From assembly GCA_000002445.1 (NCBI GenBank), contig CM000207.1:1056001-1120000 (forward strand): 64,000 bases of DNA, in the 5' to 3' direction. The DNA is from Trypanosoma brucei. Lineage: Eukaryota. The translations under genes were made by a program, and so were the position numbers. The notes under the pieces were generated by a model. That model worked only from the letters and a program-made list of their open reading frames with translations. It searched no databases and was not told the DNA's origin. This document shows positions 1-47,277 of this stretch, in pieces (positions within the stretch are counted from its first letter, which is position 1; each line of letters begins with the position of its first letter).

Positions 1-226
1 TGCTAAACGCTCCGATTGGAAGGTAAATTTCATGTTCCCACCCCGGTGGGTTTCGGCACACCCCCTGCGCATGCAAGTGTCTGATTGCTCTTGGGCACCA
101 TGTTCTTCCAGATTAATTGCCCACTTCCTACCGTTTCTTGTCCCACTACATCTAGATACGCATCCTCTCACCTAGTTGGAGTTTTCTCAGGTTTAAAGCG
201 TTGTGTTGTTATCGCGCCGCATCGCT

Positions 227-1228: not shown

Positions 1229-4200
1229 AGGTAACCATGTTTCTCATACTTTTACTGTTGGTGCTGTTACTTCCATTTCGTCTCGTCGTTGATTCACGGT
1301 CGTGCCCTCGTTGCACCCATTAAAAGGTGTAGCCGTGGTTCGGGGCTGCGCTTTTTGGTCCCATGACACCACACGCAAGTCGCAGCGGACTCAGGAGATA
1401 GAAATGGAGAGGGGTTGCTTTTCGGTCCCGTTTGTGTATCATCCCAATCAACGTCGTGCAATGCTCGCGGAGCATTTTTTTAGTGAGCGCGCTTTGTATG
1501 ACTATTACCAATAACGTGGAGTTTCCACGCATACATCAAATGATTGTCAATGAAAGAAGTGAGGACGACCGTATGGTCCTTAACAAACCCATGGAACCGT
1601 TGCAAATTTTCATCTCTAATATCTCATCCCTCTCTTCCTTCATTTTCTACTTTCTCATTTATCCCTCGATGTTTTTTTGAATATGTGAGACCGGCGCAGA
1701 TTTCAAAGCCCTCCGCTTGGATCTGCCAAGCCGCGAGTTAGGTCTGTTCTCCACATCTGAAAAGAACCGTCTCTTCCTCCCCATTTATAAGTGGCAAAAG
1801 AGTTGAAACTTATTGCAGAGCATCGTAAAGGTCACACGGAAAGAGCACGAAATGCATTCGACAGGGCAGCAGAGCAGCTGAATTGCCTAAATCAACCTTC
1901 AAAGCGTTGTGCAGGCCCCCTGTGGTGCGTGCGGGAGTGTTGTGGTTATCCACTCTGATTCGACACTTGCATGTCGGTTAACTCCCACTTTTTGCACAAC
2001 ATTCCTTTCATCCGAAGGTAGTTGAGAGCATTCTTCTTTTTTTTTTCCTGTCCGCGTTAGGAAAGGGCTGAAGACTTTTATATATCGAATACTCGGACTG
2101 CTCTAAGAAGCACGGTCCCTCAAAGTTTTATTGGTTCTGTAATCGTACAATTTTATCTTACACTTTACCGTTTCGGAAAGGTGAAAGAATCAAAGAGATA
2201 ATGTTAGGGAACCTTATTGAAGGAACCATGAACATCCTGACTTACAGCTCCGATTGCTTTTCCCTCTGGCACAGAACAGAACCCACTCATATATTTAAGA
2301 GTTCTACGCGCAAAGTTTGCTTAGTAGAGCCGATGTGCCTCACATCCCCGTACTAAATAATGAAGGTCGCTCGACCAACTTCAGTTACTTAATATGCCCT
2401 TGTATCACGATGCCTTTGCGGAGGTAGTACCCCTACATCCCTGCCATATGCCTATGACTAGGGCATCAGTCCGCCTGTAGCCCTCAGTTGGCGTTGGGAA
2501 GCGGCCAGGCACGTGAAGCATGTGCTGGTTCCATTTCCGCGGCCCCTGTTGCAGCACATGCGGGAGGCCGGTGGTGTGAAGTCGTTAAAAGCAGCACAAC
2601 AAAGCACTGTTCCATCCGCCAAAAGTAAACCCACCGATGGCTTCTTTAAAAGGGATGCTTTCGTTGTTTTTTTTTTCTTTGGAGGTTGCTGCCGAACTGT
2701 TTTATTGATCGCGGTTGAGGTCATACAGTCCCGGCGTACAATGCTCACCATGTGATTGTCAGTTTGTGAGGGGCCGCGCGCCTGCGGACAAAGCGTGGGT
2801 GGCGAACCGCCATGAGGCAAGGACCTTTGAACCCCGATAGAAGTGAAGGGGGACAGTCGGTGATGGACGTTTCACCGAAGCCCAACCGGCCCCGTTGGTG
2901 GACCTCCGTGAGGCGAAGAGCCCAAAACTGGGGAGTCGGAGTCGGACTGCGACGCCCCCGGGCCCGACGCGCCACCAGGAGCCTCCCGCGCTGTGGATGT
3001 GGTGCAGCAGCTTTTGCCCTTTGGAGAGGTTGAGGGGGGTGTCCGAGGCACCGCTTGGTGTTACTGACGGTGTCATCCTCTTGAACTCTCGTGAGAGGAA
3101 GTGACGGTTGGCTGTGCGGTAAATTCCTTTTAATATTTCAAATGCGCAAAGGGAAAACGCCCCCTCCGGGTGCCGAGTTTGCCTCCAAGCACTGCGGACA
3201 AACCGTTTTTTGGGGGGGAAAGCCGGTGCCATTCGGATTGCAGTTATCCGTCATGAAGGGACGAGGTGTATTTCACTCGAAAGAGCTAAGCGCATCCGAT
3301 CCCTTCGGATTCAGACTGAAGTGTTCGATTCGGCGCTGTTGCTACACCCTGCTTACACCCAATGTCGCCAACGCGCCTCCGCAACCCTGCGGGGTTGTTC
3401 AAATGAACATGTACGGTTGACCCCTGGCCCTTTGGCAAGCGCTGATTGGACCGAAGGTGATGCAAGGGGGAAAGATAACCTAAACGGGGGCAAATCATTC
3501 GCGACACGGTTAGCCAGAAAGCTCGGTATAAATATATTACCTCGGCGATTGACCGGCGAGCGGTCAGCCCACACACACCCAACTGACGTTAGTTGGAGCC
3601 CCAACGGAAAGCGAAACTGCTTCGTTGGCCTCGGTGTGTTGGGAGGCGCGGTCCGTGACATTGTCGAGGTTTTATTCACATTGCGGTACCCTCTTGCTGA
3701 TATGGAAACTCCCAGTTAGAACCGCTGGTCGCCAAGGTTTGTGTGTGCCCTCTGCTGATTATGACGAGTTTACATGGCAAATGTTGCTCCTCATCTTGAA
3801 AGCGCGAACATCCGATGCGCTTTCGGGTCCTAACAGCGCCTCATGGTGGTTCCTGCATCTGCCAGCGCGGATGCTAGGTTATGCAACCCCACAGTCTCCC
3901 ACGAAGCGACGGTTCAGGCGCGCCCGGCGTCCTTACGAGTGGCTTCGCAGCTCCGTCTGGCCTCTGAGTGCTCGTGCCCTTAATATTTGAAACAAGCAGC
4001 ACAACAGCGCCGATCCGTAGCTACGGGAGCCCCTTCCTTCGCACCCCCAGAACGTACACATATTTCCGCGGACGCACACGTGGCCTCCGCGGCTTCAACA
4101 GGGCCTGACGTATCGTTCTTTCAGGGGGCTTCTGGCGCCAGCTCCAGCGTTGGATAACCCAAAGGACGAAAGCTGCCGGTTTGTGTTTCTAAATTTTGGA

Positions 4201-4591
4201 CAAACGAATACGAAACTGCACATTTCGCGACCGGTTTGCTTCTGAACGTTGCCACTGTTTGAAGCAATAGAGTTCCAACCGTATCGTCTCCTTTAAACCT
4301 TTACTTCTTATCTTGATCTGACATTTGTTCTTGAGGTTGTATTTAATGTTGCGATAACTGGCTGCACGTACCTTCCAAAGTGGGCAAGACAGTGCGCCAG
4401 AGGGGGGGCGGTGTGAAGTGCTTTTCGCTGCCATCCACATGCACGTGAAGTGGCAGCAAACACCCCTTTAAACGATAATGCGACCCTGTTGTGTTTTCTT
4501 GTTTTGCTCCTTCTACTCTTTACTTGTTTGTGACATAACCGGAATAGCAAAAGGTTACCACCTCTAAAAAAGTTAAGGCGAGAGCTACGAA

Positions 4592-5470
4592 ATGCACAAG
4601 CAAGGGTTGACATACAAATATGGGAATGAGCCGCGAGTTTTTCCTGAGAGACGGAAAAGGGAGCGGCCGCCGCCTTTCCAACCCCTTGATCCCCAAAGAG
4701 ACCTGGCAGCAACGGCGGAGATTAAATCAGCGGCGCAGACCCTTATGGCAGTGCCCCCCGATTGTTACGGTGCTCAACACAGTTCAGTTAAGCGCCCCGC
4801 GTACGAACACCGCCGCGAGTCATTTAGAAGAAGCGGGCACCGGCGAAGCCAAACAGAAACTGAGCAACTTAGCGTAGAGCAACGCAATTTCACCTCCCGG
4901 CAACAAAATGAAGGATGCAGCACGCAAGATGTAGAGGATGGAGCAGTGAAGACAACGACCCATCAGCCAGAGGTTCCACCGATGGAGGCGAAGCCCCCTG
5001 AACCCAGTCCGCTCCAGGAGCTGTTACGACGAATTATCATATTTGAATTCTCTTCGAAATGCACACAGCGCTCGATCAACGTTGTGCGGACCATTTGTGA
5101 TACACTGTGCAAGAATCCTGCCGGTGTGGTTGAAGCAATGCTAGTCATAGAGGGGTGCTTTGCTGATGCTTTGAAAGAAAGGAACCAGCAAAGACTACTC
5201 CACTATTGGTATATAGTGGACGCCATAATGAAGTTATTCCGGGACAGGCAGCTTATGCTCGAGGCGGTCTTCGTCGCCCTGCCTCATCTTCTTCTTGTGT
5301 ACGTACCCTGGAATAACAGCAAATTGGCCATGGAGCCGTGGTTCAATCGGGAGAAGGACACCGAAAATTATAAAAACTTGTTTAATGTGTGGGAGTCTAT
5401 TGTGCCCGAAAAAATTACAAACGACATCAAGAAACTTTGGCAAGATGGATTCCCTGTGGGAATCCACTGA
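4592..5470 (+). CDS. Hypothetical protein with a possible CID/RPR-like helical domain
   Basis: ATG at 4592. The segment 'LQELLRRIIIFEF…LLHYWYIVDAIMKLF…' resembles the CTD-interaction (CID/RPR) domain pattern of Pcf11/Rtt103-type proteins. The family call is weak. Confidence 0.4.
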   Translation: MHKQGLTYKYGNEPRVFPERRKRERPPPFQPLDPQRDLAATAEIKSAAQTLMAVPPDCYGAQHSSVKRPAYEHRRESFRRSGHRRSQTETEQLSVEQRNFTSRQQNEGCSTQDVEDGAVKTTTHQPEVPPMEAKPPEPSPLQELLRRIIIFEFSSKCTQRSINVVRTICDTLCKNPAGVVEAMLVIEGCFADALKERNQQRLLHYWYIVDAIMKLFRDRQLMLEAVFVALPHLLLVYVPWNNSKLAMEPWFNREKDTENYKNLFNVWESIVPEKITNDIKKLWQDGFPVGIH

Positions 5471-8400
5471 GGGGGGCACTTCAGTGATTGGACACGAGCG
5501 AACGATGGGTCACGCAGAGTGGAAAAAAGATGGCGCCAGTAGTATAATTACATGACAACGACAAAATGTCGAAAACTTAACCGTTAGGAAGAGACCCCAC
5601 AGGAACGTCCCCGTAGGACGACGTACTGGAAAACTCTGACCGCCTTTTCGCCTACCGCGTTGCTAACCGATACACAGTAAGTAATCGTTTTCCGAAAGAG
5701 AAATAGCATCCTGCCTTTAGGTCATACATCATTTTCAGAGCCCTGGTTTTACCTCGTCAACTCTTGGAGGGCAAACCGTCACGGTTATCAAGCGCAGGTG
5801 AAGACCTATGTGTTCCACGCCTGCAAAAACACAAAAGAAAATGAGAGGTATAAGTGTGCTCAGAATTTAACACGCCCCCGGGGACCGTCGGATGCAACCA
5901 CAGACGACAAAGGGACACACCGAGCTGCAAGGCTCTTCGCGGTTTCCTCAAATTGGGATAGGTCCCTGGGTGCGTCGAAGCTTCCCATCTTCCCTGGATC
6001 GCACCCCTCCCTCCCACACACACCACCCACAGTTCCGCTTTTCAGATGGGAAACCCCCTTACCCCATCTTCCTTCATACCGTGTTCAGCCGTAACGACGT
6101 TTATAATTTAAACAGCAAAGCATATAATTGTACTCGAAGTGTTTCCATTTTTTGACGTTCTCTCAGGACAAGAAAAAATTTAGTGTGCAGCGGCGTGGAA
6201 GCAACAGGGTCTCGCATTGTATCTCGTGCGGCGTGGGAAGAGAAAGCCCGCAGAGGTGGGGATTAGAGACGGCATATAGTGAGTGTTGGCGGATTCGGGA
6301 AGACCGTCTGTCGCTGGTTATCCGAAATGTGTCTGCACATCTAAACACGGCGGTGCAGACGCCTTGTTTTCGTCTTAGTGTTTTGTTTGGCGGGTAACGT
6401 TATCTAGGAGAAGACAGGTTCAAGCTTACTCTGAAAGGCAACACGATAAGTAGGGATCTTCGACTTTTTTGACCCCCGAAAACGATAATACTCTAGGAAG
6501 AGATGAAGAAACGGTAGGATTACATGTGCTTTGGAGATTTTCATCTTTTTTTTAGGGGATCTGACGAGGGGAATGACCAAACTTTGCCCATTTTCATGTG
6601 AAATCCAACAATCCATCATGATTCTTGTCTTCATCTCATGCTTCAGAAGGGCGTCACAAAAAGTATGTCTTTGAAACTAGGAGTAGGTTGAAGGCAATGT
6701 TAACCACAAGACCTCAGCGACCCTTCATGGGTGGACAACTGGTGGCAAGACCCATAAGTTCTCACAGTGTTCGTCAGACGGAGTGATCAGATACCATTTT
6801 CTTTTGACTGGAAACCACACTTTGGTACGTAACTCAATTGTACCGAGGGCACCTTAACTATGGAACAAACAAAACTCATGATGCATCCTGAAGGTGGTAC
6901 CAAAACTAACTTTTGTTCTTTACGATACTTCACGTGCCTTTCACCAAGCCGAAGACTGAGGGCTTCCACAGGGCATTTGACGATGCACGAGTGACCCTTC
7001 GGAATGAATGGCTGAAGTTGGATGAAAGGCAAATCAATTATGCATCAGCAGTGTGTGATGGCCCATGCATATCTGGTCGGAGAAATTTAAAGATCCAACA
7101 AAAAGCATACTTGCAAACATTGGGTTCAAGGGGTCGCATGAATCAGCTTCGGCAGCACATCAACGTACTGGGGCTGCAGATAAAGCAGATGCAAGCTCAA
7201 ACGGATCGGGTGAAGGTGTCGCTTGCCCGGAAGTGGAAACAGGCTGGACCTCTTTCCAGCCGCACAAGGCGTCAGCGATAGGGCCGTATGGAGCATTATA
7301 GCACAACTCGTTATGCACTCGTGCCCAATGGCATGCTCAAACAACGAAACCGATAGCGACCGTTGTGGCGGTGAACACCCCAGGTGACACGAAAGTATTG
7401 GAATCTACACTAAGTGAGTGGAAAGGGTGTACCGCGTTTCCAACGAGCTGAAACCCCCTCCGCGGAAAGGCGCCAACACGTTACCCCGTCATGCGGGTTA
7501 TGAAAGAGATGTTTCCCTCGCTCAACACAAGGAAGACCCCACAAGGGGATTGGAAGGGTCTCTTAGGTAAGGCTATGTCACACTTGAAAACTTCAGAAAA
7601 CGAGGTATCAATAAGCAGTACCGGCCCACGATCCCTATGTTGCGGCATTGGCTTCAGAAGCAATTCACATCACCAAGAGTGTATGGACACAAACGAGTTG
7701 GGAACAAAGTGTTTCCATAATGCGGGGATTTTGCAATTCCTTAACAAAGAATAATCCATAGCCTCGGGAAGAAAATGCTTCTTTGCGTATTGTAAGCTAA
7801 TAATTGGCCAGGGGCGGTGCGGTGTGATATACCAGAACCTTATTGACGTTGCTAGCCACAGTAAAATCATCAGTTCATATGTTTTTAGCCGGCCCTCAAA
7901 GGAAGGCGGCCGCAAGCCACACAAAACGAGTTCACCCCATGGAAAGCTTGGGAATTGGATCTTATCGGCGAGTTGTTAACTCTAGAAAACGATCGGGTGG
8001 ACCAACGACCCGTCTGAGTGACAGTCAGTTGATGGATGGAAATCGCGTTGCCCAAAAAAGAAATTTTCATCCCTCACCCTCGAAAAAAGGGCGCTCTGAT
8101 TGTGGATTGGAGGGCCCAGCCGAAGACGCACAAGCCCAACTCACACATAGAGCGGTATGGTATGTGGTGATCGGGGGAGAAGATGCACAAGGGGTAAAAG
8201 CTGTAATCAAGAGCATGGGGGAGGGGGAACGGCTCTCAGTGCCAACCGTGAGGGAAACGGAAAGCGCTCTCCGACTATGCGGCACGACGGGGCATCCCAT
8301 ACAAGAGGCGCGCTAGCGCATGCAATTGCAGCGGTGATCGAAGGCGGTCTCAACACCCGATTGGCGGTGCAGTTATGGGAAACACGCGAACCCTCTAGAG

Positions 8401-11400
8401 TTGCCATGAAAAAACACAGATCGCCGCATAGGGTCTCGGATAGCCCTAGAAGGCAAGTCCGCTCACCTGACACCATATATGTGGTAGAAGCGGTAAGGAA
8501 AATGGGCAAATTCACCGTGGATAGTTCCGATCAGAGGACATGATAGGGGGCAACTCTTCCAATGGCATTGCACCGAACGACGCACTCACCGTGCACGGGT
8601 GGAAGATAAAGACGACGAACGAAGGCCGCTGGCACAGCATGTGAACGTGGACATTCCATCCTTGAACTGAGTCCTGAGTCGACTAAAATCAAAGGAGCCT
8701 GAAAGGTTTGGGGTGCAGTGTGGAACGTTAGGAAACAACCAAATATCTCGAGGAAAGAGCGAGGAGGAAGGAGGGGCCCTTTGAGGACAACAAATGCGGA
8801 TGCTCAAACAATGAAACAGGCGGGAGTTGCTTAAACTGCATCGAGGTTACCAACCATGGGGTGAGTGGCGCCTTTTGCTATCGCTGGGGAGAAACTGTTG
8901 GGGTCGCGGCGGCGTTTCATAGCCTGGTCAAAATCAAAAAATGAACAGGAAGACTGCGGGACGAGGGTTTCTTTGGGTTACATTTCCCTGTAATTTGGGG
9001 GCAGTTTGTATTAAAATCACTGCCATTTCTTCGTTTGAAGGAGGTTATTTTCCAAGTAACTTTTCCAGAAACGCAGAAATTTCCGTTGTCGCGTCGGAAA
9101 ATAATCCTGTGGATGGCGGCTCACGCGGGGTGAAGGTCTCACCGCCGGACATAGCGAAGGGGACTGTGGGAGGCAGATTAGGGGTGCTTTCAGTACCTCC
9201 TTTTCGCCCGTTTAAAAGCCACTAGCCTCCTTATAATCTAAAGTTAGGATTTTCAATAAGGACCCTCAACAATGCAAATGATGGATATGATGGTCGCAAC
9301 GGAAGTTCGATATGAGTTTTTTTTGTTCCAACACACTCCTTACTTAACAAAGAGGTGGGGTATAGACTATTCTATGGAAATAAGTTAATCGCAGCTAACA
9401 AGGATGTGGCCAGCCCTTCCGCTTCAGCCATCTTGCACCGTTTGGACATGATCATGAAAAGACGGTCGCATGCCCAAAGGCGGGCCAAGGGAGCATCGTG
9501 GTAAAACATGATGTATTCTAAGATATCACCCCCTTGCTTCCCTTTCCGCAACTACTTAGGAAATAGGGCCATTCATCGGATCTTTCATTCGGTGTCGAGT
9601 AGGTTGCCAAATGTTTTCATGCGAAAGCGAAACATTGATCCTTTGTGACTAAAAGCCTCCCCTAATAACCACACCGTAGTATGAAGGTTAGACGGCGGCC
9701 GTTTGACGGTTCTCTGCCGAATGTTTCACGGAATCTCACGTCATATGTGGGAAACTATGTCACTGATTTTGCCTTTAAAAAAAAATGATATGATGGAATA
9801 CTTCTTTATTATTTATTTAATTGCTGCTCAATTTATGTAAACCTTCTCAATCTTTCAATGCATATTTTTCTCGATCCCCCACCATTCCCGTGCTTAGAGG
9901 AAAACGATACTATTTCCCGTGGTAATTTACTTCGTCGTTCCGTGAGCATTTGTTCCCTACCCCAAACAAGCCACTTGTTTCCACATATTTGAACAACAGG
10001 CCCCAATAATCCTTCCAATATTTCCACTGAACTACCGCCCTAACTCTTTTACCTTACACACAATCGGCAACAAAAAAAAACATCTTTCAACGAACTTTTC
10101 TCTGCGTACCAAGAGGTCCGTGGATTGGTGACGGCCCGCCTGCACGGGGCTGCGGGCCCTAAATCATTGCTCAGCCGTTAACGGACCTGCTGCGGGCGAG
10201 ATGGCGCGCTGTTGCCATGGCACTTTCCCTGGACCCACAGCTCGCCAAGCAGGTGGCAGCCACTTGTCCGCTCCCGACCCAGCAAGCCGCTAAACAGTAA
10301 TGTCACGCTGGGGCGGCTGTTATCATCGCGACCTCAGTGCTCTCATTTTTTTTTTCCGCGTCGGTACCCACGCAGGTGGATGAACCCTCCCAGGAGGGTT
10401 TTTACCTGTTGGAAGGGTGAACCTCCTCTGAAATTTTCTTTAAATTTTGCTGTGCGCATACGCTACTACGAAGAAATGCGAAGGAAAGTCAGAAGGGGAA
10501 AGCGGAGGCTGAAGCGTTGAATGGTAAAAAAAAAACATAAAGAGAACAGATATTATTAAAGTGGAAGGTCACAGTTTGAAGTTTGCAATAACAACGAGTG
10601 TCAGCAGCAGCCGGCAGCAGGAATGAAGAAATATTTAGAGAAGTGTTTGTCGTGGGGGGAGAAGGCCGAAGGAGGAAGCGCCTGAGCTTTTTATTGAGTC
10701 TGATACTGTAAATATCAGTGTTCTGCTTTCTTCCCCATCAATTTTTCATTCCTAAACATTGGTTTGCTGGCCTTTTCTCGGTGAAACGAAACTGCGAGGT
10801 GGGCGCTTTTCATTTGTCTTCAAGTTTCCCCCTTACAAAGCTCCTCAACAGTTGGTCTTATTCTGGAACGACCTTACAGTTTAGCCATCTCTATTCCCCA
10901 GCACCCTCTCCCAGTACAACACATGACCCTTTCTTTCCCCCTCTTTCGTCCCGCGCGCATCTCAAATCTACCCTCCGCGTTGTCCAATATATGTGGAAAG
11001 ATGCTCAGTGTCCTGCTGCACGGTTTCTTTTATGTTTCGGACAAGGTTTGCACTAATTTTCCAAAGTTTCCTATCCACGCCCTTTTTGAGGTCCACAGGC
11101 ATCACACATTTTCCCCACTTCTCCTCTAGATCCTCCCCAAGGACCAATGTTTCCCTCCTTCCTGGTACTCTCGAAAACCAACTGACCTCCCTCCATCAGA
11201 CCATTTCAATATTCAAAGCACATCCTCCGATAACTCCCAGCACTGCTGAAAAACACTCCTGAACCACCCAGTCGAAAAATAATCACAATTAAAAACGGCC
11301 CCTTTATCCCCCGAATTTGCTTTATATACAGCGCTTCGAACTCTTTTGTACCGCCTTTCCCATGGCGATGTCAATCATATCCACGTTGCGGCATGGCCCG

Positions 11401-12253
11401 CCACTCCGCTCAGGTGATGAAAGGCAAGCACCCGCATCTTATTCCGTTGGAGTGGATCGCGGCGGAAGGGCTTCAGCACCACACCAAAGCTTAGACTATG
11501 ACAAATGCGCTACACAGCAGGCGCCATCATAGGAGGGTCCCTGGGCACGTTCTGACTTCCCGCAAACGGTGCCATCCGCAGGAAAATGCTGGGCAGTGCA
11601 GACGTCAATTAGAATCCCGGGTGCTTTTTTTTTCGGTATAAATTGGAACGTTGCTGCGCTCTTAAACGAAGTGAGCAGCACCCGTCACCGCGTTGCCTTC
11701 AGCCGCGATGCAAAGAGAGATATACCTATTCCGATCCCTGAAGATATCCTTCTGGAGGTGAACTTCTCGAAGGGTTCATTACACGATCATTTCCATTTTG
11801 CGGTATGTCCCATACAAATACTCGAACTAACACAAGCCTCCGCTTTTCCCCTCGTCGAAAAGGAGGGTACGCCAGAGAAAAACTTGACGATCTCCTTCAG
11901 GATGGTCCACGAGTATTTGGTGACGATCCCAACTTTCATTCTCTTGTGCCATAGATGTCTCCCCCTATGCGGTGGAAGTGGCTTCACAGCTCGACTAAAC
12001 GCAGAAAATAAAAACACCGCCGGAAAGACCCACGAAACTGTGTGTTAAGACTTGGGCCAGGGGCGCTGGTCCCACATACGGTGTAATTTCTTGAAAAGAC
12101 TGTTTTGTTGCGAAAAGGAGCCCTCAACCCACGGCGTAAAGCTGCCGTTCGATCATATTCTTCCACGGCCACGTCGGGTCGGACGAGCCGCTATTTTCAC
12201 TGCAAATATCCTTACAAGCATCGCATCAGCGGAAATACCATAACTTGTGGGAA

Positions 12254-12805
12254 CTAGAACTCGCCACGCAGGGGAAAACTGAGACGATTAAGGAAGAGGG
12301 ACATATCCACAGTCACGACGACGCGCTTGCAATCATAGTTTGCGAGGCGCCGATCGCCGCAGTCTGGCAGGTAGAACAATATCCATAAACCTTTCCCCAT
12401 GGACAAAGAGGTGGCTGAAATGGAAAATAAGATTAATAACACCACGGAAAACACTGAACGGAATCGTCCTGTAACGCAGGGTCGACCGCATTTATTACCG
12501 TGCTCGATTCCCAACGTTGTCGAAACAAGTTCTTCAAAATGAGCATATCTGACAAGAAAAGCCTGAAACGTCAGCAGGCGAGTTGTAGCCTGCTCAGTGG
12601 AAACCTCGGCATGAGGATCGCACTGCACGAGAGAAGAATAGGAGCATTTTCCTTGTAACTTCGACCACTTCTGGAGGGTCAAATTCTGATCTGTCCTGCT
12701 TCCCGAGCGGCACTCACCATCACAAGGATGATAGAAGAATTTTGTGAGAGCACCTGACAACTGATTGACCAGTGAAAGTACCAGAAGTAATTTAAAAAAC
12801 GTCAT
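12254..12805 (-). CDS. Orphan minus-strand ORF, 183 aa, with a predicted N-terminal signal peptide and one internal TM segment. It may be spurious.
   Basis: ATG verified on the minus strand ('cat' at 12803-12805). Hydrophobic N-terminus 'MTFFKLLLVLSLVNQLSGA' and an internal hydrophobic stretch 'VFSVVLLILFSISATSL'. It lies alone inside the gene-poor region and opposite to the dominant coding strand. Confidence 0.15.
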   Translation of the reverse strand: MTFFKLLLVLSLVNQLSGALTKFFYHPCDGECRSGSRTDQNLTLQKWSKLQGKCSYSSLVQCDPHAEVSTEQATTRLLTFQAFLVRYAHFEELVSTTLGIEHGNKCGRPCVTGRFRSVFSVVLLILFSISATSLSMGKGLWILFYLPDCGDRRLANYDCKRVVVTVDMSLFLNRLSFPLRGEF

Positions 12806-14372
12806 CCTCTTTAATGCCTATTCCGGAGCATCTCATACAGTGGCCCAACGCGGAGGGTAGTGCAAAAAAAAAAACGTAAAGTTGGTGGAGAAACCCGCCC
12901 GCCCTCCGTCCAACCTCCTTTCAAACAGTGCTAAAGGCGGCACGATACTTAAGCAAACCACTTTCCTAACGGAAATAACTCAAAAGAAAATGGGCAAATG
13001 GCACAGCACCAGGCCCCCTCCACTGTTAGTAAGCGCAGCGAACTTCCTTCCCACTTTGAGGGAGCGTCGCAAGAGATAATATCCAACCCCGACTTGGCAT
13101 CTTCGAAAGCGGCCTGGCGATAAGGAGAGGAAATGAAGATGTGTCTTCAGAAGGGACTGAATATTGCAGCCGTTATAGGAATCCGCATTTACTCCGGCAG
13201 ATTGATCATGAACAAAACAGGGTGTGTGGTGCTCGGGGGACGTTTTGATCTCACAGTTGCGCCGGCAGTCGCTGGCAACCGCTTCAAAATGAGCTTTTCT
13301 TCCCTTCGCTCAAATATTGATGATCTTTTGTTTGTTTTACCTCCTCTCACAAATGAAGAACACGGTGGTGAACGCAAACTGGCGTTGCCACTCTCCATTA
13401 CTCCAAGCATGCATCGCACAAATACACGCGCACAGCTTGTGTATATACGATATCGCGTGATCATGCAGGGCTTTTCAAATATCAGCGACACACCATTGAT
13501 ATTCATGCCTTCTTAACTCTTTTTCACCCAATCTATCATTCCACATCATTTCTCCCACTAGAACACAATGGTATGGAGTAATAATGTGAGGTGAAGCACA
13601 TACATATGATGTGAGAAGGAGAGGTGTGACACTGTAGTGTTTCATCCGAAGGAAGAGTTAACAAATAACATATACAGTAGCCACACCTCCCATATTGTGC
13701 ACATAATGCCTCATGGTATATTATTAGTATGTACAGGGGAAAACTATGTCGATATATTATAACAAACCTTCACAGCCACAAAATATACGGTTTGCATTAT
13801 TCTCACATTTCTAGAAAAGCGGCAAACACAAAGGAGCTTATTATCATATTCCTATAAATTCCCCATACGTGTGCAAGCTGTCCCCTCAGCATATAATATA
13901 TTGTGATATGGTGAACATAACCCCCCACCAGTGCGACAAATATGGGATCTATGTAAATATAAATAAATATACACTTGCCTCTTGGACATATTGGATGTCA
14001 TATACAACAGCATTTGAGTTGTATTCTCTGTTAGGCCAACTTATGTATATATAATAGAGTGAGGCCTTTCCAGACTGTGATGAAATGAGTTGGTGTGTAT
14101 TAATGACAACTCTCCCAAGGCATACGGAAGAGATACTATTTCCCCTGAGGGCTGCCGAATCTTTCCTCTGGAACTTTGCCCTGGGGGCTCCGATGCATTT
14201 TGACGCCCTAAGGGATCCAGCAGCGCATTTTCGTTCTGAACCGGCAATGTCCACACTTCAGCGATGCTGGTGGGCTGCGTCCATACTTCGTCCTATGCAG
14301 CCTCCTTTCGTGAGATGGCCTCGCATTTCGACTCGGCTCCGTTTTGCAAGATTCCCGCCTCCCCGCAAACCT

Positions 14373-14891
14373 CCAGTACACGATGAAAGTTGAGGCATTT
14401 CTTTTTCCCATTGAACATTCAACTTCCGCGCGTGGCACTGCACCGCCAAGACTTCAGTCGCTTACTAGATGCAAGTCCATTCGTGTCATTCCAATATGCC
14501 GGTAACCATGGAGAAATGGTCATTCCACTTTCCAAAACCCTCACGTACGTGCGTTTTACTTCTGATGGAGGAGAAAATAAAAGAGTTACTGCGTCCTCAA
14601 CAATCATATTTACGAAGTAACAATGCCTCGCTATCCGATGAACGACCACCCGCATTCCGTTAGTCTCTTTAGGAAATGGCATTTGGGTTCTTATTGATAA
14701 GCAACAACAAAACACATTTGCATGCATTTATATTCGAAAGGATGCGTGCGCGAGGTTACTTTACCCGACTTATGTTATTTGTCGATGCCGTTTCGATATA
14801 ACAAAAAAAAAGGAGGTTGGCTCTTTTTCTGAGTTCTAGGCAAGGTGCTCGACGCTGACACATTGGTGAGGCAAGTGCCGAACTGTGGAAA
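14373..14891 (-). repeat. Copy A of a ~520-bp dispersed repeat, in inverted orientation relative to copy B
   Basis: The reverse complement of 14373..14891 aligns base for base with 46424..46951. Checked at both ends: '…gtggaaa' ↔ 'tttccac…' and 'ccagtacacgatgaaagttgaggcattt' ↔ 'aaatgcctcaactttcatcgtgtactgg'. Only a few substitutions (e.g. agtcttgg/agttttgg) and a poly-A length difference. The flanks diverge immediately. Confidence 0.85.
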
Positions 14892-15730
14892 GACTATGGT
14901 TTGATCAGCGAATTGCTGCGGGGGATGCGGCGGTGGTTGGCACGGGCTCGTGTTGCTGTCGCCTGAAACGTTCTCTGCGATGTCACCGCCGGTATGAGTT
15001 TGTTGTGGTCGGGATGCTCGGATGCCGATTCTTTGTGGGCTTTGAGAAAGAACGTTTTGATTCCCCACCGCTGGTAACCAGGGATGGGTGTCACGTCTAG
15101 TATCTGATTGTGGTAGGAAGTGGAACAATAGAAATGTAGGTTAGTGGTTTCCCAATCGGGCTGGTAACAGGCTCAAATTGTTTAAAAAAATCAGTTTGTG
15201 AGGTAGACTACCGGTGTGAATAGGGGAGTTCTTCCGCATTTGACTTCTTTGACTGCTTGCTGATCTTACGTTCTACGTACCTTTTCCAAGAAACTGAAAG
15301 AGGGATCGGTGCCCTTACTATGCAGAAGAGGTATTGTTGGGCATCTGCTATTCGCCTTAGTGTTTGTGATTTTATCATTTAAGAAATTGGTGCATTGCTC
15401 AGTAGCGCCTGAAGTGTGTGTGGGGATTAGTTGATACTGTAACGAAGAAAATCGTTTTTGTTATTTCGTGAGCATTACAGCTTTTTATTTTTAAAGGTAG
15501 AAGTTCTTTTCAACCTCTTTGGAGTGCCGGATACAGTATGAATGACTACTAATTGAGGGTTGATTCCTGCGTTGCCTTCCTAACAAAATGCTTTCCAGCA
15601 CTTCATCTACTGTTTCATTTGTTAGTAACTCTTTTTTGGTTTTTGTGACCCTGATTATTCATGAGGGAGATGAGGGGTAGTGAATTACGTGGTTGTGTTG
15701 CTGTGTTTAGGCAAATGTACGTGACTCGAG

Positions 15731-15768
15731 TGTATGTATGTATGTATGCATGCATGTATGTATGTATG

Positions 15769-15802
<34 letters not shown>

Positions 15803-15803
15803 G
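15731..15803. repeat. Compound microsatellite (TGTA/TGCA)n-(TA)n-(GT)n
   Basis: Direct reading: 'tgtatgtatgtatgtatgcatgcatgtatgtatgtatgtatatatatatatatatatgtgtgtgtgtgtgtgg'. Confidence 0.9.
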
Positions 15804-16511
15804 TGTTCTCTTAAGAATGTGTACCTACACCACACGCGTTGTACATAGAGTTAGATGTGGAATTACATTGTATTGGTGCGATCATATCACTCAGCACCGT
15901 TGTTTTTGTTCGTATTTCATTTGTCTGATTGCTTTATTACATATTTCCCTATTGATGTGTTATCAAGGGGCATACAAGGTTATGTCTGTGTCGCTTTGGC
16001 GGACATTTTACCGCGAAGCGGAGCATAGTTGAAGTGAATGTGGCGCGCTAATAACCTGAGATATGTTACTATTGTTGGTACGGTGCGTGGTAGATTGTTG
16101 CGTCACATTCCCACCGTTGTTTGGATGGAATGCCCATGCACGTGATATTTGCGGCTCCTTTCCTCCTTTTTTAACATAATGATTTTTATGGCAGCGGAGG
16201 GTCCTTGCAGCATTGCCATTTGACGTGTTGCACGCAGACCCTTCAGAGTAAAGGACCGTTTGTTAATTGACGACGGGCTATGCGAGGTGCAGTGCTACTT
16301 TCTCTACAAGGACAAAGGACGTGTGTGCGTGTGATATTTAGTTCTTTCATTTTAATTGCATTTCCCCTTGACTAACGTTATTTGATGGCACGCCCCCTGC
16401 AAAGCACGATATACAACAAAAAATTTTCTTATCTGCAGCAGTGAAAAGTTTTTATTTTTTCTGATCCATTTGACTTTTAGTATAAAGGGCAAGGTAAAGT
16501 TTGGTTACCCG

Positions 16512-16512
<1 letters not shown>

Positions 16513-16540
<28 letters not shown>
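16513..16540. repeat. (TG)14 microsatellite
   Basis: Direct reading 'tgtgtgtgtgtgtgtgtgtgtgtgtgtg' followed by 'cgtc'. Confidence 0.9.
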
Positions 16541-16543
<3 letters not shown>

Positions 16544-18968
16544 CATTGGTTTGTTGAACTCAAGGGATTTTCAAAGTTTTGTTTAGAGATCTTTTTTTAG
16601 TTACTACGAAGATATTTAATTTTCCCAGTCCTTTACGGCTCATTTATAGATAAGATGCTTTGTGTAACTTCAGCTATATTTCTTTTGGACAGAATAAAAA
16701 ATAGCTGCGTACATTCCACTCTTTCCCACAATATAAGGCACGTCACTTTTTATATTCGCACGATATGCCGTCTCTGTTTCCCAACACATGTGCTTAGTTT
16801 CACCGACTCAGCTGAACGCTACGGTTTGGTTTGGTTGTGCGTCCTACTTGGTTGTCATCTCTTCCTGTTTTCGTTTATAACTAAGGAATACACAGAAGGA
16901 TGGACTAGAACTCAAAACGCTTTGTGCCGTCCGTCAAATAGATAGATGCCTCTCGCAACGCCCTAAGTTCTTGATGCCTTGTGAAAGGCCAATGAAGGTA
17001 TTAACACAGAAACTTCAATGCAGGAACCAAGGGAAGAATGGAGATAAGTTGGTACTGGAGAGATGTTTTTCGTGTTGTCTTTTTGTTACCTTCGTCTGAT
17101 GCGTTCACAGTGGTTTGGGTATTATTAATGGCGTACCCTGTAGCTTCTGGTATTTTTGGCTGCGTCAGTCGGCCAAAGTTTCAAGTTTTTTTTAAAATAT
17201 TTGGATACCAAACGGACAACGTAAGGTGGCTGGAGCATAAACAAAAACACTCTATTATTCACAACGCTCTTTCTTTCGGTTTTCGAACCAACTGGAGGAT
17301 AACGAATGCTGTACCGGTGACGCAGTGTCGCGGGCAATGCAATGGACCTAAAAAGCACTGAGTACCAAGGTTACTAGCTGACCACTTGTTAGGGGTGTGG
17401 GTTCGTCTCCCATGTGGCGCTTTCCTCTCCCGGGGAATGGCAGCACGTTAAAGGACTACAAGTGCTGACCATTGAAAGTAAATGACACGAAGGCGAAATC
17501 AAACAGGATGCGGTAGCATCATCTCCATGTCCACGCACCATGAAATTTGGAGAAGCGATGTAAAGTTGTATCATTCTTTTATTGGCTCCAGCGCACGTGT
17601 CTTACATGTTGGATGCTTTGGTGTATGTTTCCCATGAGGTGACACATTCGTCGACCTCACGGGACCTTTCGTGTTGTTTATACCACCAATCACCACAATA
17701 GGAAGAAAAAGCAATCATCTTCATGTGAACCAATGGCCGTGCGACTAAGTAAAAGCTTAGCCGTGTATGGAAGATGCCACCTTCATTTCTTGTCGTGTAG
17801 TGACAACATCAATGATTACTATATGTGTTCTGTTTCATCTTCCACCGCAATGATCGCTTTTACGATTCCCGCTTATGCGGGTGGATTGCATGTATGTTTT
17901 GATGAGGTGATGTTTGATCCTATTCGTTTGAATCACTTATGATCGCAGGTTCAAGATGTTCGATACATTTGCCAATGGGAGATGACACAGCACCCTCTTC
18001 TATTGATCATTATGGTCCATAATTGGCGTGTATTCCCTTTCTTTTTCCCTTTCTTTTTTTTTTTGCAAAAAAAAAAAGGAAGCTCATGTGAACTATGCAA
18101 CACCCACTGTCTCGTGGAGGGGCTCTAAATTCTATGTTCTTAGTAACAATCAATTCTTTGCCTTCCCCCAAGGTGTCGGTGAAAGGTTGACACCAGCTAT
18201 CGTCTTTAGTGTGTTGTCCGCCACGGGAAATGCTGCAAGTGGAAGGTGTTATGCCGTTTAGCTTGGACGACACCATTGGGTGATTTTCAGGTATGAAACT
18301 TACGACTCATTAGTCGTTACATGGAGTGTAAAACGGATGAATGTACCTGCCGTTTTGCCCCACACGGACCGTTGCAAAAGGCACAAGACACATGTTCGGC
18401 ACTCCAGCAGTTTGAAATGGGGGTGACACTTCGGAAGACATGCCGTCCTCAGAGTTTTTTTTTGTAGGAACGAATGGAGAGGCTTTTGAGTGTTGGGAAA
18501 ACACGGGATAGTCTTCGAAGGAGGAGTTACTGAAAGTCAGTAGGTGGTGGTGTGCCCTCTTGCTCTCAGCGCACTTTACCGATTCCAGTGTTAAGCAACA
18601 TTATGGCAAGCCCTGATTATTGGAGCAATTCTGGGGAGGCTCGACCTGCGGGTGTCTCCTCGGAAGTTGCTATGCCAGTTATCACTTCCTCTGTAGAATA
18701 TAATGTTTATGGTTATTGTTGGTCTATGGAACTATGTCTGTTGTTTGTGTGGAGTATATGCTGGTCGCAACTTTTTTTTGCTTTTGTGTGTGCGTGTGCG
18801 GATCACTGCTGTTGAATGTGCTCACCTTCATTTTCCCTACAGCAAACTGCTGATCCGACATCTGATTTTGTCTTTTCCCCCATCGAAAACATTTACATAT
18901 CTGTCGGCATTTCTTTATAAATTAAATATTCGGCATAGTTTGCGCGTTTCGTATCCATTTGGTGAGTG

Positions 18969-19415
18969 ATGTCTCGAGTGTACGTTGGTAACATTGAAAA
19001 ACGTGCAACAAAAAAGGAACTACTTGAGTTCCTGAAACCAATGGAGGAACATATCGAGGACTCGTGGTTAGCTCGGCGACCTCCGGGGTTCGCCTTCATC
19101 ACAATTGCTCCGTCTCGTGCGTGTGAATTCGTGGAGACTTTCAACGGAAAGGAGTTTCGTGGAAAGGCTCTTTTGGTTGAGCTGTCCACAATGTCGTCAC
19201 AGCGGAAGGACGGAGAGAACCGCCGCCGCCGAAGCAGTGATAGCAGACGTGATAGCAGTCGACGCAGGAGGAGGTCTGGAAGCCGCTCAAGGCACAGTGA
19301 TAGACGGCGCGACCGGAGTCGCAGCCGCAGTCACCGGCGGGACCATTCAAGAGACAGAAAGCGCCGTTGCCGCTCACGCAGCCGTAGTAGCTCTCAGGGG
19401 CCTTGTTCCCCGTGA
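18969..19415 (+). CDS. Small RNA-binding protein with an N-terminal RRM and a C-terminal Arg/Ser-rich (RS) domain, SR-protein-like
   Basis: ATG at 18969; the track's start at 18966 is a GTG. 'VYVGNI…GFAFITIA…FNGKEFRGKALLVEL' has the RNP-2/RNP-1 pattern of an RRM. The C-terminal ~60 aa are RS/RD/RR dipeptide repeats. Confidence 0.6.
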   Translation: MSRVYVGNIEKRATKKELLEFLKPMEEHIEDSWLARRPPGFAFITIAPSRACEFVETFNGKEFRGKALLVELSTMSSQRKDGENRRRRSSDSRRDSSRRRRRSGSRSRHSDRRRDRSRSRSHRRDHSRDRKRRCRSRSRSSSQGPCSP

Positions 19416-46951: not shown

Positions 46952-47277
46952 GTGTAAACATATTTTCTCATTTCATTCCTTTCCGTTGTGGTGTTGTGAC
47001 AATGAGGTGCCTTCCCTTATGGGGGCGGCACACACGTCTGCGTCGGTTTTAAAGTTCAATAACAGGTCATAGCACACACCAGTGGTGTGATTGTTGCTTG
47101 TGCCCATACCTTCTCTTCCTACGCTTTCCCTTTACTTTCCTCACTGCTTCATTTTTCTTCCCGTTTTTAAAGAAAAAATATTAATCGTTTCTGACACGTA
47201 TCCACACTCCTCTGCACGTGTGTATTTGTGTTTCTGCTTGAAGAAGTTAACGTTGCACTAAGAGACAGGAACAAGTG

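What the first reader, a model, noticed from the sequence alone, without database searches (positions are those of the whole stretch)
1229..18968. A ~17-kb gene-poor stretch with only one convincing gene, embedded in a same-strand gene array
Downstream of 19 kb the + strand carries a gene roughly every 1-3 kb. Between 1.2 and 19 kb there is a single convincing + ORF (4592..5470) plus scattered short ORFs on both strands.

The stretch contains:
- GC-rich patches (~2.4-4.2 kb and ~8.0-8.6 kb)
- an AT-rich island (~13.5-14.1 kb)
- three microsatellite blocks (15.73-15.80 kb, 16.51-16.54 kb and poly-A/T runs)
- copy A of the inverted repeat
- one orphan minus-strand ORF with a signal peptide (12254..12805)

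In kinetoplastids such stretches can be:
- degenerate retroelement or repeat graveyards
- transcription start/termination regions
- hosts for non-coding RNA genes (tRNA/snRNA/snoRNA clusters), which I cannot identify by eye
Basis: seen in the sequence. Interest (0 to 1): 0.5.

Follow-up and report, generated by a model that had tools for sequence, protein, structure and literature searches.

The report
Known transcription-unit boundary in trypanosome chromosome
The gene-poor stretch is real, but it is an ordinary, already published feature of Trypanosoma brucei chromosome 9: the gap between two same-direction gene arrays, where RNA polymerase II transcription of one array ends and the next starts.

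Summary
The window is T. brucei TREU927 chromosome 9 (Tb927_09_v4 position = window position + 1,056,000). About 5% of 1.2-19 kb is convincing coding sequence, against about 74% downstream. There are no tRNAs, no Rfam families, no Pfam domains in any frame, and no further conserved ORFs.

The stretch has parts:
- 1.2-6.5 kb is transcribed. It holds a 3'UTR, the published 2.7-kb novel transcript Tb9.NT.39 (1690-4355), and the mRNA of the 292-aa gene (about 4540-6540).
- About 6.5-18.1 kb has no processed transcript in Kolev et al. 2010.
- Tb9.NT.40 (18079-18814) lies just upstream of RBSR1.

Kolev's Table S14 ends one + strand unit at Tb09.160.4950 (the 292-aa gene). It starts the next at Tb09.v2.0050 (17038-17361), typed "Internal". 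Composition agrees. Cumulative GT skew reaches its minimum at 14,654, and 15-16 kb is the most GT-rich kilobase of the 64 kb, as expected for a T. brucei Pol II start region.

Retroelement content is minor: one weak RT-like remnant, plus an ingi insertion present only in T. b. gambiense. The "start/termination region" reading is supported and the ncRNA-cluster reading is refuted. Already known; low interest.

The parts
1229..1611 (+). 3'UTR of the 333-aa gene (CDS 227-1228, inferred Tb09.160.4930)
   Evidence: Seven Logan contigs carrying this CDS span window 114/181 to 1481/1611.
1690..4355 (+). Tb9.NT.39, a published 2,665-nt novel processed transcript without a convincing ORF (lncRNA-like)
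   Evidence: Kolev 2010 Table S7 gives chr9 1057690-1060355. Independent Logan contigs cover 1513-4284, 1628-4168 and 2597-4327. No sequence conservation in the T. vivax syntenic gap.
2759..3232 (-). Tb09.160.4940/EAN76708, 'hypothetical protein, unlikely'. A spurious ORF antisense to Tb9.NT.39
   Evidence: Coding score -15.5.
3123..3719 (+). Weak ORF, annotated as a 192-aa gene in T. b. gambiense only. Not a conserved CDS
   Evidence: A G7/G8 homopolymer difference at about 3211 puts the gambiense ATG out of frame in TREU927. Coding score 10.0 bits; no Pfam.
4539..6536 (+). mRNA of the only real gene (CDS 4592-5470, 292 aa, EAN76709, inferred Tb09.160.4950). It is the last ORF of the upstream PTU
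   Evidence: Logan contigs span 4539/4567 to 6455/6536. Orthologues in T. vivax, T. congolense, T. cruzi and T. conorhini. Kolev Table S14.
6537..10500 (.). Zone with no reported transcript after the last gene. Presumed termination zone of the upstream PTU (inferred)
   Evidence: All annotated ORFs here (7138-7281, 7879-8316, 8406-8543) are in Kolev Table S2, 'no detectable transcript'. No novel transcript is listed between 4355 and 18079. SNP density against DAL972 is 17/kb at 6.5-9.3 kb, against about 2/kb in the 292-aa CDS and UTR.
8578..8987 (+). Probable decayed retroelement fragment (RT-like), with stops and a frameshift
   Evidence: Two collinear tblastx HSPs with identical 99-nt spacing match a T. 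cruzi RT-like remnant next to the orthologous gene, E 2.9e-7. The best of 31 shuffled or reversed controls is 1e-3. The T. cruzi ORF gives only a weak RVT_1 hit, E 0.08.
10500..14654 (-). AC-rich on + (GT-rich on -) arm. Putative antisense arm of a bidirectional start region
   Evidence: These are the lowest GT bins of the whole window (44-47%). Cumulative GT-AC skew falls to its minimum at 14,654. Kolev 2010 reports bidirectional initiation at all putative Pol II sites.
12254..12805 (-). Tb09.160.4990/EAN76714, the orphan ORF with a signal-peptide-like N-terminus. Probably not a gene
   Evidence: Named 'hypothetical protein, unlikely'. Listed as having no detectable transcript. Coding score 11 bits; no Pfam.
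12434..12435 (-). Site of an ingi-type retroposon insertion in T. b. gambiense DAL972, absent from this genome
   Evidence: The alignment to DAL972 stops at 12434. The insert starts with poly(T) and carries ORFs of 341 and 579 aa with RNase H and C2H2 zinc fingers.
14373..14891 (-). Copy A of a 519-nt, 99% identical inverted duplication (copy B at 46424-46941 +). It lies on the skew switch point
   Evidence: No poly(A) tail and no target-site duplication seen at the ends (sequence inspection).
14750..17037 (+). GT-rich + strand arm, the likely core of the internal Pol II transcription start region. Includes the (TGTA)n and (TG)n microsatellites
   Evidence: 15001-16000 is the most GT-rich kb of the 64 kb: 61.7% against a mean of 52.3%, sd 3.2. 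The sense-intergenic 4-mer score peaks at 0.23 here. GT-rich coding-strand elements are T. brucei Pol II promoters (Wedel 2017).
17038..17361 (+). EAN76718, inferred to be Tb09.v2.0050, the 'first annotated ORF' of the downstream PTU (type Internal). The ORF itself is non-coding-like
   Evidence: Kolev Table S14. The accession order EAN76716 (Tb09.160.5010), EAN76718, EAN76719 (RBSR1) supports the assignment. Coding score 1.3 bits.
18033..18064 (+). 32-nt polypyrimidine tract, the longest in the stretch. Likely the splice-acceptor signal for Tb9.NT.40
18079..18814 (+). Tb9.NT.40, a published 735-nt novel transcript immediately upstream of RBSR1 (CDS 18969-19415, Tb927.9.6870)
   Evidence: Kolev Table S7 gives chr9 1074079-1074814. 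RBSR1 identity.

Best explanation
The stretch is the junction between two head-to-tail (same-strand) RNA polymerase II polycistronic transcription units (PTUs) of T. brucei chromosome 9.

- the 3'UTR of the 333-aa gene;
- the non-coding-looking transcript Tb9.NT.39;
- the mRNA of the 292-aa gene, which is the unit's last gene.

No processed RNA is reported from about 6.5 to about 18.1 kb. In this gap polymerase from the upstream unit is presumed to terminate (roughly 6.5-10 kb or further; inferred). A broad, motif-less 'internal' transcription start region then re-initiates transcription. Its centre is at the GT-skew minimum (about 14.65 kb). The GT-rich + strand arm (about 14.75-17 kb) drives the downstream unit: Tb09.v2.0050, Tb9.NT.40, RBSR1, PDE and onwards. 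The mirror-image arm (about 10.5-14.6 kb, GT-rich on the minus strand) would support the weak antisense initiation typical of these promoters.

Because nothing here needs to be expressed, the gap tolerates junk. It holds a decayed RT-like fragment, a segmental inverted duplicate, microsatellites, and an ingi insertion in T. b. gambiense.

Shown: the location, the lack of genes and ncRNAs, the transcripts, the published PTU assignment, and the composition switch. Inferred: the exact termination zone, the chromatin marks, and antisense firing at this particular site.
For: (1) Identity and coordinates. The window's proteins are exact TREU927 entries. Five 'unlikely' ORFs coincide base-for-base with Tb927_09_v4 coordinates minus 1,056,000.

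(2) Kolev et al. 2010 Table S14 lists PTU Tb09.160.3470 to Tb09.160.4950 (+) and then PTU Tb09.v2.0050 to Tb09.160.5330 (+), type 'Internal'. The paper states that 5'-triphosphate reads were enriched at internal sites that also carry the histone marks of Siegel 2009, and that initiation is bidirectional.

(3) Their Table S2 lists every annotated ORF between 7.1 and 16.9 kb as having no detectable transcript. Table S7 has novel transcripts only at 1690-4355 and 18079-18814.

(4) Independent Logan assemblies give transcript-like contigs only for 158-1611, 1513-4327 and 4539-6536.

(5) Composition. The GT maximum of the whole window is at 15-16 kb and the GT minimum at 12-13 kb. Cumulative skew reaches its minimum at 14,654 and then rises monotonically to 64 kb. 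This matches GT-rich coding-strand promoters (Wedel 2017).

(6) No alternative content was found: no tRNA, Rfam, Pfam or coding-potential signal.

(7) In T. cruzi the orthologue of the 292-aa gene is followed by about 9 kb of retroelement debris and a DGF-1 gene on the opposite strand. In T. vivax it is followed by a minus-strand ORF. Its position at the end of a unit may therefore be old.
Against: - I could not map any ChIP-seq (H2A.Z, H4K10ac, H3.V, base J, Pol II) or 5'-PPP reads myself. The TSS call rests on one 2010 supplementary table that names flanking ORFs, not a coordinate.
- Two identities are inferred from ID and accession order, not read from a table: Tb09.160.4950 = the 292-aa gene, and Tb09.v2.0050 = 17038-17361.
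- The Kolev data are from procyclic forms only.
- Positive GT skew is also a general property of sense-strand intergenic DNA, so the 15-19 kb signal alone would not prove a promoter.
- The absence of Logan contigs in the gap is weak evidence, because RBSR1 itself has none.
- The termination zone is unmarked in the sequence.
Confidence: 0.8

Rival explanations
1. The stretch is mainly a graveyard of degenerate retroelements and repeats (ingi/RIME/DIRE, VIPER-like) that pushed the flanking genes apart. The lack of genes is a by-product of insertions rather than of a transcriptional function.
For: - RT-like remnant at 8578-8987, beyond shuffled controls.
- Purine-rich, fast-diverging 6.5-9.3 kb block.
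- ingi insertion at 12434 in DAL972.
- T. equiperdum scaffolds break or are mis-joined around 7.06 and 8.97-9.05 kb.
- The T. cruzi orthologous locus is full of RT/RNase H debris.
Against: - No Pfam RT, endonuclease, RNase H or integrase hit in any frame, even at E up to 10 with stops bridged.
- No tblastx or blastn similarity to the 3-kb ingi 3' half.
- The only long repeat is a 519-nt duplication without poly(A) or target-site duplication.
- At most about 0.4 kb of 17.7 kb is attributable to a mobile element.
- This reading is compatible with, not an alternative to, a PTU boundary.
Confidence: 0.25
2. There is no unit boundary. The stretch is transcribed through as part of one long PTU and consists of unusually long UTRs and unstable long non-coding RNAs.
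For: - 1.2-6.5 kb and 18.08-18.81 kb are indeed UTRs or non-coding transcripts.
- T. brucei has many lncRNAs, and 394 genes with alternative 3'UTR processing.
Against: - Kolev Table S14 splits the array here and types the downstream start 'Internal'.
- No processed transcript is reported for about 11.5 kb.
- The + strand of 4.5-14.65 kb has antisense-type composition, unlike 15 of the 17 intergenic regions of the downstream array.
Confidence: 0.1
3. The stretch hosts non-coding RNA genes (a tRNA, snRNA or snoRNA cluster) that mark the boundary.
For: Many T. brucei PTU starts lie next to tRNA, snRNA or rRNA genes (types listed in Table S14).
Against: - ARAGORN finds no tRNA in 64 kb.
- No Rfam family reaches its gathering score in 64 kb.
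- At E up to 1 there are only miRNA models matching the TGTA/TA/TG microsatellite, plus a chance H19 hit.
- Kolev types this start 'Internal', not 'next to tRNA/snRNA'.
Confidence: 0.03
4. Several real protein-coding genes were missed because of frameshifts, sequencing errors or unusual codon usage.
For: - GenBank TREU927 carries about 11 ORF entries here (EAN76707-08 and EAN76710-18).
- DAL972 annotates 192-aa and 127-aa proteins.
Against: - Most carry the name 'hypothetical protein, unlikely'.
- All have low coding scores and no Pfam domain.
- Table S2 lists ten of them; one is not listed (Tb09.v2.0050), and the two at 2.4-3.2 kb are antisense within Tb9.NT.39.
- The 192-aa ORF is frame-shifted between subspecies.
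- There is no tblastx conservation with the T. vivax or T. cruzi loci apart from the two real genes and the RT-like remnant.
Confidence: 0.03

Closest known systems
Non-divergent ('internal', head-to-tail) Pol II transcription start regions of T. brucei (Siegel et al. 2009; Kolev et al. 2010; 57 non-divergent TSRs in Wedel et al. 2017)
   Same: - Lies between two same-strand gene arrays.
- Listed as an 'Internal' PTU start in Kolev Table S14.
- No focused promoter motif.
- GT-rich coding strand at the 5' side.
- Mirror-image composition upstream, consistent with bidirectional firing.
- No adjacent tRNA or snRNA gene.
   Different: Nothing essential differs. The gene-free gap (about 11.5 kb without a processed transcript) is more than 5 times the largest intergenic spacer elsewhere in this window; genome-wide rank not determined. 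Chromatin marks could not be checked here.
Divergent strand-switch regions of trypanosomatids
   Same: A cumulative GT-skew minimum with GT-rich arms pointing outwards on both strands.
   Different: The minus-strand arm carries no gene. The only ORF (12254..12805) is 'unlikely' and untranscribed. The arm runs head-on into the upstream + unit after about 4-8 kb, so functionally this is a head-to-tail junction.
Synteny-break or 'disruptive' regions with retroelements and surface-gene families (ingi/RIME/DIRE/RHS in T. brucei; DGF-1/L1Tc/VIPER islands in T. cruzi)
   Same: - The T. cruzi orthologue of the 292-aa gene is flanked by RT/RNase H debris and a DGF-1 gene.
- T. b. gambiense has an ingi in the gap.
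- There is an RT-like remnant at 8.6-9.0 kb.
   Different: In this T. brucei genome there is no intact or recognisable retroelement, no RHS or surface-protein gene, and less than 3% attributable mobile-element sequence.
T. brucei long non-coding or 'novel' transcripts (Tb#.NT.# of Kolev 2010)
   Same: Tb9.NT.39 (1690-4355) and Tb9.NT.40 (18079-18814) are members of that published catalogue.
   Different: They explain only about 3.4 kb of the 17.7-kb stretch.

Membership tests
T. brucei internal (non-divergent) Pol II transcription start region / PTU boundary | Lies between two gene arrays on the same strand | tested here: met
   All convincing genes in the window are on the + strand, on both sides of the gap.
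T. brucei internal (non-divergent) Pol II transcription start region / PTU boundary | Experimentally mapped initiation (5'-triphosphate RNA ends) defining a new PTU | tested here: met
   This is a look-up, not my own read mapping. Kolev 2010 Table S14 ends a PTU at Tb09.160.4950 and starts an 'Internal' PTU at Tb09.v2.0050. I mapped the coordinates with offset 1,056,000.
T. brucei internal (non-divergent) Pol II transcription start region / PTU boundary | GT-rich sequence on the coding strand, strongest at the 5' part of the TSR (Wedel 2017) | tested here: met
   15001-16000 is 61.7% G+T, the maximum of 253 overlapping 1-kb bins (mean 52.3%, sd 3.2). The cumulative skew minimum is at 14,654.
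T. brucei internal (non-divergent) Pol II transcription start region / PTU boundary | Broad H2A.Z/H2B.V/H4K10ac/BDF3 domain over the start region | not testable with these tools
   No ChIP-seq data are accessible. The supplements of four chromatin papers held no coordinates for this locus.
T. brucei internal (non-divergent) Pol II transcription start region / PTU boundary | Upstream termination marked by H3.V, H4.V and base J | not testable with these tools
   No data are accessible. Termination in about 6.5-10+ kb is inferred only from the absence of processed transcripts.
ingi/RIME/DIRE (or VIPER) retroelement remnants | Recognisable RT, AP-endonuclease, RNase H or tyrosine-recombinase coding remnants | tested here: inconclusive
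   Pfam finds nothing in six frames. There is one weak but above-control tblastx match to a T. cruzi RT-like remnant at 8578-8987.
ingi/RIME/DIRE (or VIPER) retroelement remnants | Nucleotide or protein similarity to T. brucei ingi; poly(A) tail and target-site duplication | tested here: not met
   No hit to the 3-kb ingi 3' half from DAL972. The 519-nt repeat has no poly(A) and no target-site duplication.
ncRNA gene cluster (tRNA/snRNA/snoRNA/SL RNA) | Match to tRNA or Rfam covariance models | tested here: not met
Protein-coding genes | Coding-type codon usage, conservation in related species, domain hits, transcript evidence | tested here: not met
   The exception is the 292-aa gene, which meets all but the Pfam criterion.

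The most novel reading that the evidence does not exclude
The internal start region is a decayed divergent strand-switch whose gene-less minus-strand arm (10.5-14.65 kb) still fires. Its antisense transcripts would collide with polymerase arriving from the 292-aa gene and so help enforce termination of the upstream unit. In addition, the 519-nt inverted duplicate sits exactly on the switch point (14373-14891). Read on the + strand, it would give an RNA 99% complementary to the 5' flank of the GRAM-domain gene 31.5 kb downstream (46424-46941). That would make a trans-acting antisense or siRNA regulator that is not among the seven inverted-repeat siRNA loci catalogued by Tschudi et al. 2012.
Probability: 0.07. 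Interest if true: 0.5.

Novelty: already known. Interest (0 to 1): 0.15.

Why it matters
It matters little beyond good annotation. It shows that a reader working from raw sequence can pick out a Pol II unit boundary in a trypanosome from gene density alone. It also shows that a simple cumulative GT-skew plot pins the likely start region to within about 1-2 kb (minimum at 14,654, GT maximum at 15-16 kb).

For the genome record:
- The dozen 'hypothetical, unlikely' ORFs here, and the gambiense 192-aa and 127-aa calls, should not be treated as genes.
- The 292-aa protein labelled 'T. brucei spp.-specific' is in fact conserved across Trypanosoma.

If the minor speculative reading were true, the site would be a handy natural case for studying termination by promoter-proximal antisense transcription.

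Tried and rejected
- **Six-frame Pfam scans.** I scanned all ORFs of at least 50 codons in 1229-18968 on both strands. I also scanned stop-bridged + frames covering about 7.2-10.2 kb at E up to 10. Nothing was found.
- **Concatenated-ORF protein search.** I concatenated all gap ORFs of at least 80 aa and ran them as one homologous-protein query, to fish for Logan transcript ORFs and distant homologues. The first attempt was over the length limit. The second returned nothing, not even the exact database entry P0013, so it is a false negative and is not used as evidence. It consumed the last protein search.
- **RIME hypothesis for the 519-nt repeat.** Rejected: no poly(A), no target-site duplication, and no similarity to the ingi 3' end.
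- **Polypyrimidine/polypurine run counts per strand.** Too sparse to give orientation. Replaced by a 4-mer sense/antisense model and by GT skew.
- **TREU927 gene calls through the look-up of encoding contigs.** That record is not indexed. T. congolense is not indexed either.
- **Chromatin and origin papers' supplements.** I searched them for coordinates of this locus: Staneva 2021, Wedel 2017, SPARC 2022, Tiengwe 2012 and the 2025 histone-tail paper. Nothing usable came out except confirmation that Q38EQ1 = Tb927.9.6870.
- **Literature searches on the neighbouring gene IDs.** These gave only false leads (Tb927.9.680).
- **T. equiperdum scaffold L007.** The apparent 1.4-kb insertion at about 8.97-9.05 kb is an N-padded scaffold join and is not reliable.
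- **Profile search of the 292-aa family against PDB sequences.** No significant hit.

Full report
**Source of the window.** The 292-aa protein encoded at 4592..5470 is found exactly in T. brucei gambiense DAL972 chromosome 9 and in T. equiperdum. Nine window proteins are exact entries of T. brucei brucei TREU927, on a 3.06-Mb record. Window 1-12434 is 99.0% identical to DAL972, so the window is TREU927, not gambiense.

Supplementary tables of Kolev et al. 2010 (PMC2936537) give GeneDB v4 coordinates for 'hypothetical, unlikely' ORFs. Five of these coincide exactly with ORFs in the window once 1,056,000 is subtracted:
- Tb09.160.4940 = 2759..3232(-)
- Tb09.160.4990 = 12254..12805(-)
- Tb09.160.5000 = 13133..13516
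- Tb09.160.5010 = 15661..16032
- Tb09.v2.0040 = 16655..16945

The gene at 18969..19415 is RBSR1 = Tb927.9.6870 = Q38EQ1.

**Observation check.** The description is correct. From 19 kb onwards the + strand holds an ORF of at least 150 aa every 1-3 kb. In 1229-18968 only 4592..5470 combines length with coding-type codon usage (39.5 bits). All other stop-to-stop ORFs of at least 80 codons score 11.4 bits or less.

By my arithmetic, CDS covers about 74% of 19-64 kb and about 5% of the stretch. The spacer from 5471 to 18968 (13.5 kb) is six times the largest spacer downstream (2.1 kb). The GC-rich patches, the AT-rich island (13.6-14.0 kb, GC 0.36-0.38), the microsatellites and the inverted repeat are all present.

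**What is not there.**
- *ncRNA genes.* There is no tRNA or tmRNA in 64 kb. No Rfam family reaches its gathering score in 64 kb. At E up to 1 within the stretch there are only three miRNA models matching the TGTA/TA/TG microsatellite and a chance lncRNA hit.
- *Protein domains.* No Pfam domain appears in any of the six frames for ORFs of at least 50 codons. None appears in the purine-rich stretch from about 7.2 to 10.2 kb with stops bridged, at E up to 10.
- *Conservation.* tblastx against the syntenic loci of T. vivax and T. cruzi finds only the 333-aa and 292-aa genes and one weak extra match.
- *Annotated ORFs.* The GenBank ORFs in the stretch are named 'hypothetical protein, unlikely'. The 192-aa gene that the gambiense annotation places at about 3142-3719 is out of frame in TREU927, because of a G7/G8 run.

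Hidden protein genes and an ncRNA cluster are therefore both rejected.

**What is transcribed.** Logan assemblies of runs ERR7929156-64 give short contigs whose ends recur between samples. I infer that these are RNA-seq assemblies. The contigs fall into three groups:
- 114/181 to 1481/1611: the 333-aa mRNA, with a 3'UTR of about 0.3-0.4 kb.
- 1513/1628/2597 to 4168/4284/4327.
- 4539/4567 to 6455/6536: the 292-aa mRNA, with a 3'UTR of about 1 kb.

The middle RNA is the published novel transcript Tb9.NT.39 (chr9 1057690-1060355 = window 1690-4355). A second published transcript, Tb9.NT.40, lies at 18079-18814. It starts directly after the 32-nt polypyrimidine tract at 18033-18064 and ends just before RBSR1.

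Kolev's Table S7 lists nothing between these two. Their Table S2 ('annotated ORFs not producing a detectable transcript') contains every annotated ORF from 7138 to 16945. So about 6.5-18.1 kb is the truly empty part.

- Tb09.160.3470 to Tb09.160.4950, type Divergent.
- Tb09.v2.0050 to Tb09.160.5330, type Internal.

By ID and accession order, Tb09.160.4950 is the 292-aa gene. It is EAN76709, lying between .4940 at 2759-3232 and .4960 at 7138-7281. By the same reasoning Tb09.v2.0050 is EAN76718 at 17038-17361, lying between Tb09.v2.0040 and RBSR1. These two assignments are inferences.

The paper states that 5'-triphosphate reads were enriched at internal sites that also carry the histone marks of Siegel et al. 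2009. It also states that initiation is bidirectional at all such sites.

The sequence agrees:
- On the + strand, G+T content is highest for the whole 64 kb at 15001-16000 (61.7%; mean 52.3%, sd 3.2).
- G+T content is lowest at 12001-13000 (44%).
- Cumulative GT-AC skew peaks at 4532, falls to a minimum at 14,654, and then rises without interruption to the end of the window.
- A 4-mer model of sense-strand intergenic DNA is positive for 15 of 17 held-out intergenic regions. It is negative at 4-9 kb and 11.5-14 kb, and strongly positive (up to 0.23 bits/nt) at 14.5-19 kb.

Wedel et al. 2017 showed that GT-rich elements on the coding strand, concentrated at the 5' side of start regions, drive directional Pol II initiation and H2A.Z deposition in T. 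brucei.

**Mechanism (best explanation, confidence 0.8).** The upstream unit ends with the 292-aa gene. Polymerase terminates somewhere in about 6.5-10+ kb (inferred). A broad start region centred near 14.65 kb re-initiates on the + strand over about 14.75-17 kb. This gives Tb09.v2.0050 and Tb9.NT.40, then RBSR1, PDE and the rest. The mirror-image arm at 10.5-14.6 kb may fire weakly on the minus strand (inferred from the composition and from the general statement in Kolev 2010).

**Mobile-element content.**
- Window 8578-8987 (+) gives two collinear tblastx HSPs, with identical 99-nt spacing in both sequences and with stops and a frameshift. The match is to a T. cruzi RT-like remnant lying 3.4-4.7 kb downstream of the orthologous gene. 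E is 2.9e-7, against 1e-3 for the best of 31 reversed or shuffled controls. The T. cruzi ORF itself has only a weak RVT_1 hit.
- In DAL972 a retroposon is inserted at window 12434 in minus orientation. It starts with poly(T) and carries ORFs of 341 and 579 aa with RNase H and C2H2 fingers, so it is ingi-type. It is absent here and has no similarity to the window.
- The 519-nt inverted repeat has no poly(A) or target-site duplication and looks like a segmental duplicate.

The gap therefore tolerates insertions, but in this genome it is not demonstrably a retroelement graveyard.

**Comparative context.**
- In T. vivax the order FAD-oxidoreductase, methyltransferase-like, 333-aa and 292-aa orthologues is kept. 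There is a 5.6-kb gap before the last gene and a minus-strand ORF 2 kb after it.
- In T. cruzi the orthologue stands alone. Retroelement debris lies on both sides, and a DGF-1 gene sits on the opposite strand about 9 kb downstream.
- I could not view the RBSR1 side in other species.

The position of this gene at the end of a unit may thus be ancestral (inference).

**Verdict.** The retroelement option is marginal, and the ncRNA option is wrong. The feature is a catalogued internal Pol II start site and PTU boundary, so it is already known. Interest is low.

Noticed in passing
window 14373-14891 (-) and 46424-46941 (+): A 519-nt, 99% identical inverted duplication 31.5 kb apart. Copy A sits exactly on the GT-skew minimum (14,654). 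Copy B lies 334 nt upstream of the GRAM-domain gene (47275..48165). There is no poly(A) and no target-site duplication. It is not among the seven inverted-repeat siRNA loci of Tschudi et al. 2012, none of which is on chromosome 9.
   Followed up: partly
window 12434 / L001 17839-20879: T. b. gambiense DAL972 carries an ingi-type retroposon here that TREU927 lacks. It is in minus orientation and encodes RNase H and C2H2 zinc fingers. This is an insertion polymorphism inside the start-region's minus arm, within the 'unlikely' ORF 12254..12805.
   Followed up: partly
window 4592-5470: The 292-aa protein is labelled 'T. brucei spp.-specific' in UniProt. It nevertheless has orthologues in T. congolense, T. 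vivax, T. cruzi, T. c. marinkellei and T. conorhini: 38-46% identity over the whole protein in the alignments, and 56-60% in the C-terminal domain. Residues 1-129 are predicted to be disordered. Residues 140-285 form a confident eight-helix domain whose best PDB matches are VHS/ENTH/CID folds: GGA1 VHS, the Ctk3, Nrd1 and Rtt103 CIDs, and UVSSA. TM-scores are 0.57-0.68 but E-values are only 0.2-1.6. There is no Pfam hit and no PDB sequence hit.
   Followed up: partly
window 6501-9300: SNP density between TREU927 and DAL972 is 17/kb here. It is 2-7/kb in neighbouring CDS, UTR and Tb9.NT.39 sequence, and 7.7/kb at 9.3-12.4 kb. The block is also purine-rich on the + strand. T. equiperdum contigs break here (about 7060), and a scaffold is mis-joined at about 8972-9054. 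The cause is unexplained; a diverged repeat or an old haplotype are possibilities.
   Followed up: no
window 3142-3719: The 192-aa protein annotated in DAL972 depends on an 8-G run. TREU927 has 7 G, which separates the ATG from the rest of the ORF. The ORF lies inside the non-coding-looking transcript Tb9.NT.39.
   Followed up: yes
window 15719-15798: The (TGTA)n(TA)n(TG)n microsatellite gives sub-threshold Rfam hits to mir-297, mir-1277 and mir-3149 (E down to 5e-8, below the gathering scores). These are low-complexity artefacts, not miRNA genes.
   Followed up: yes
L009/L010 (T. cruzi) 7815-8300, 13933-14463, 18696-19280: The T. cruzi orthologue of the 292-aa gene is surrounded by short called 'genes' that look like retroelement fragments. 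I read RNase H-like HCG(I/V)xxNExxD motifs, a C2H2 finger, and an RT-like PxGxxxxP...CIDN motif by eye. A DGF-1 gene follows on the opposite strand.
   Followed up: partly
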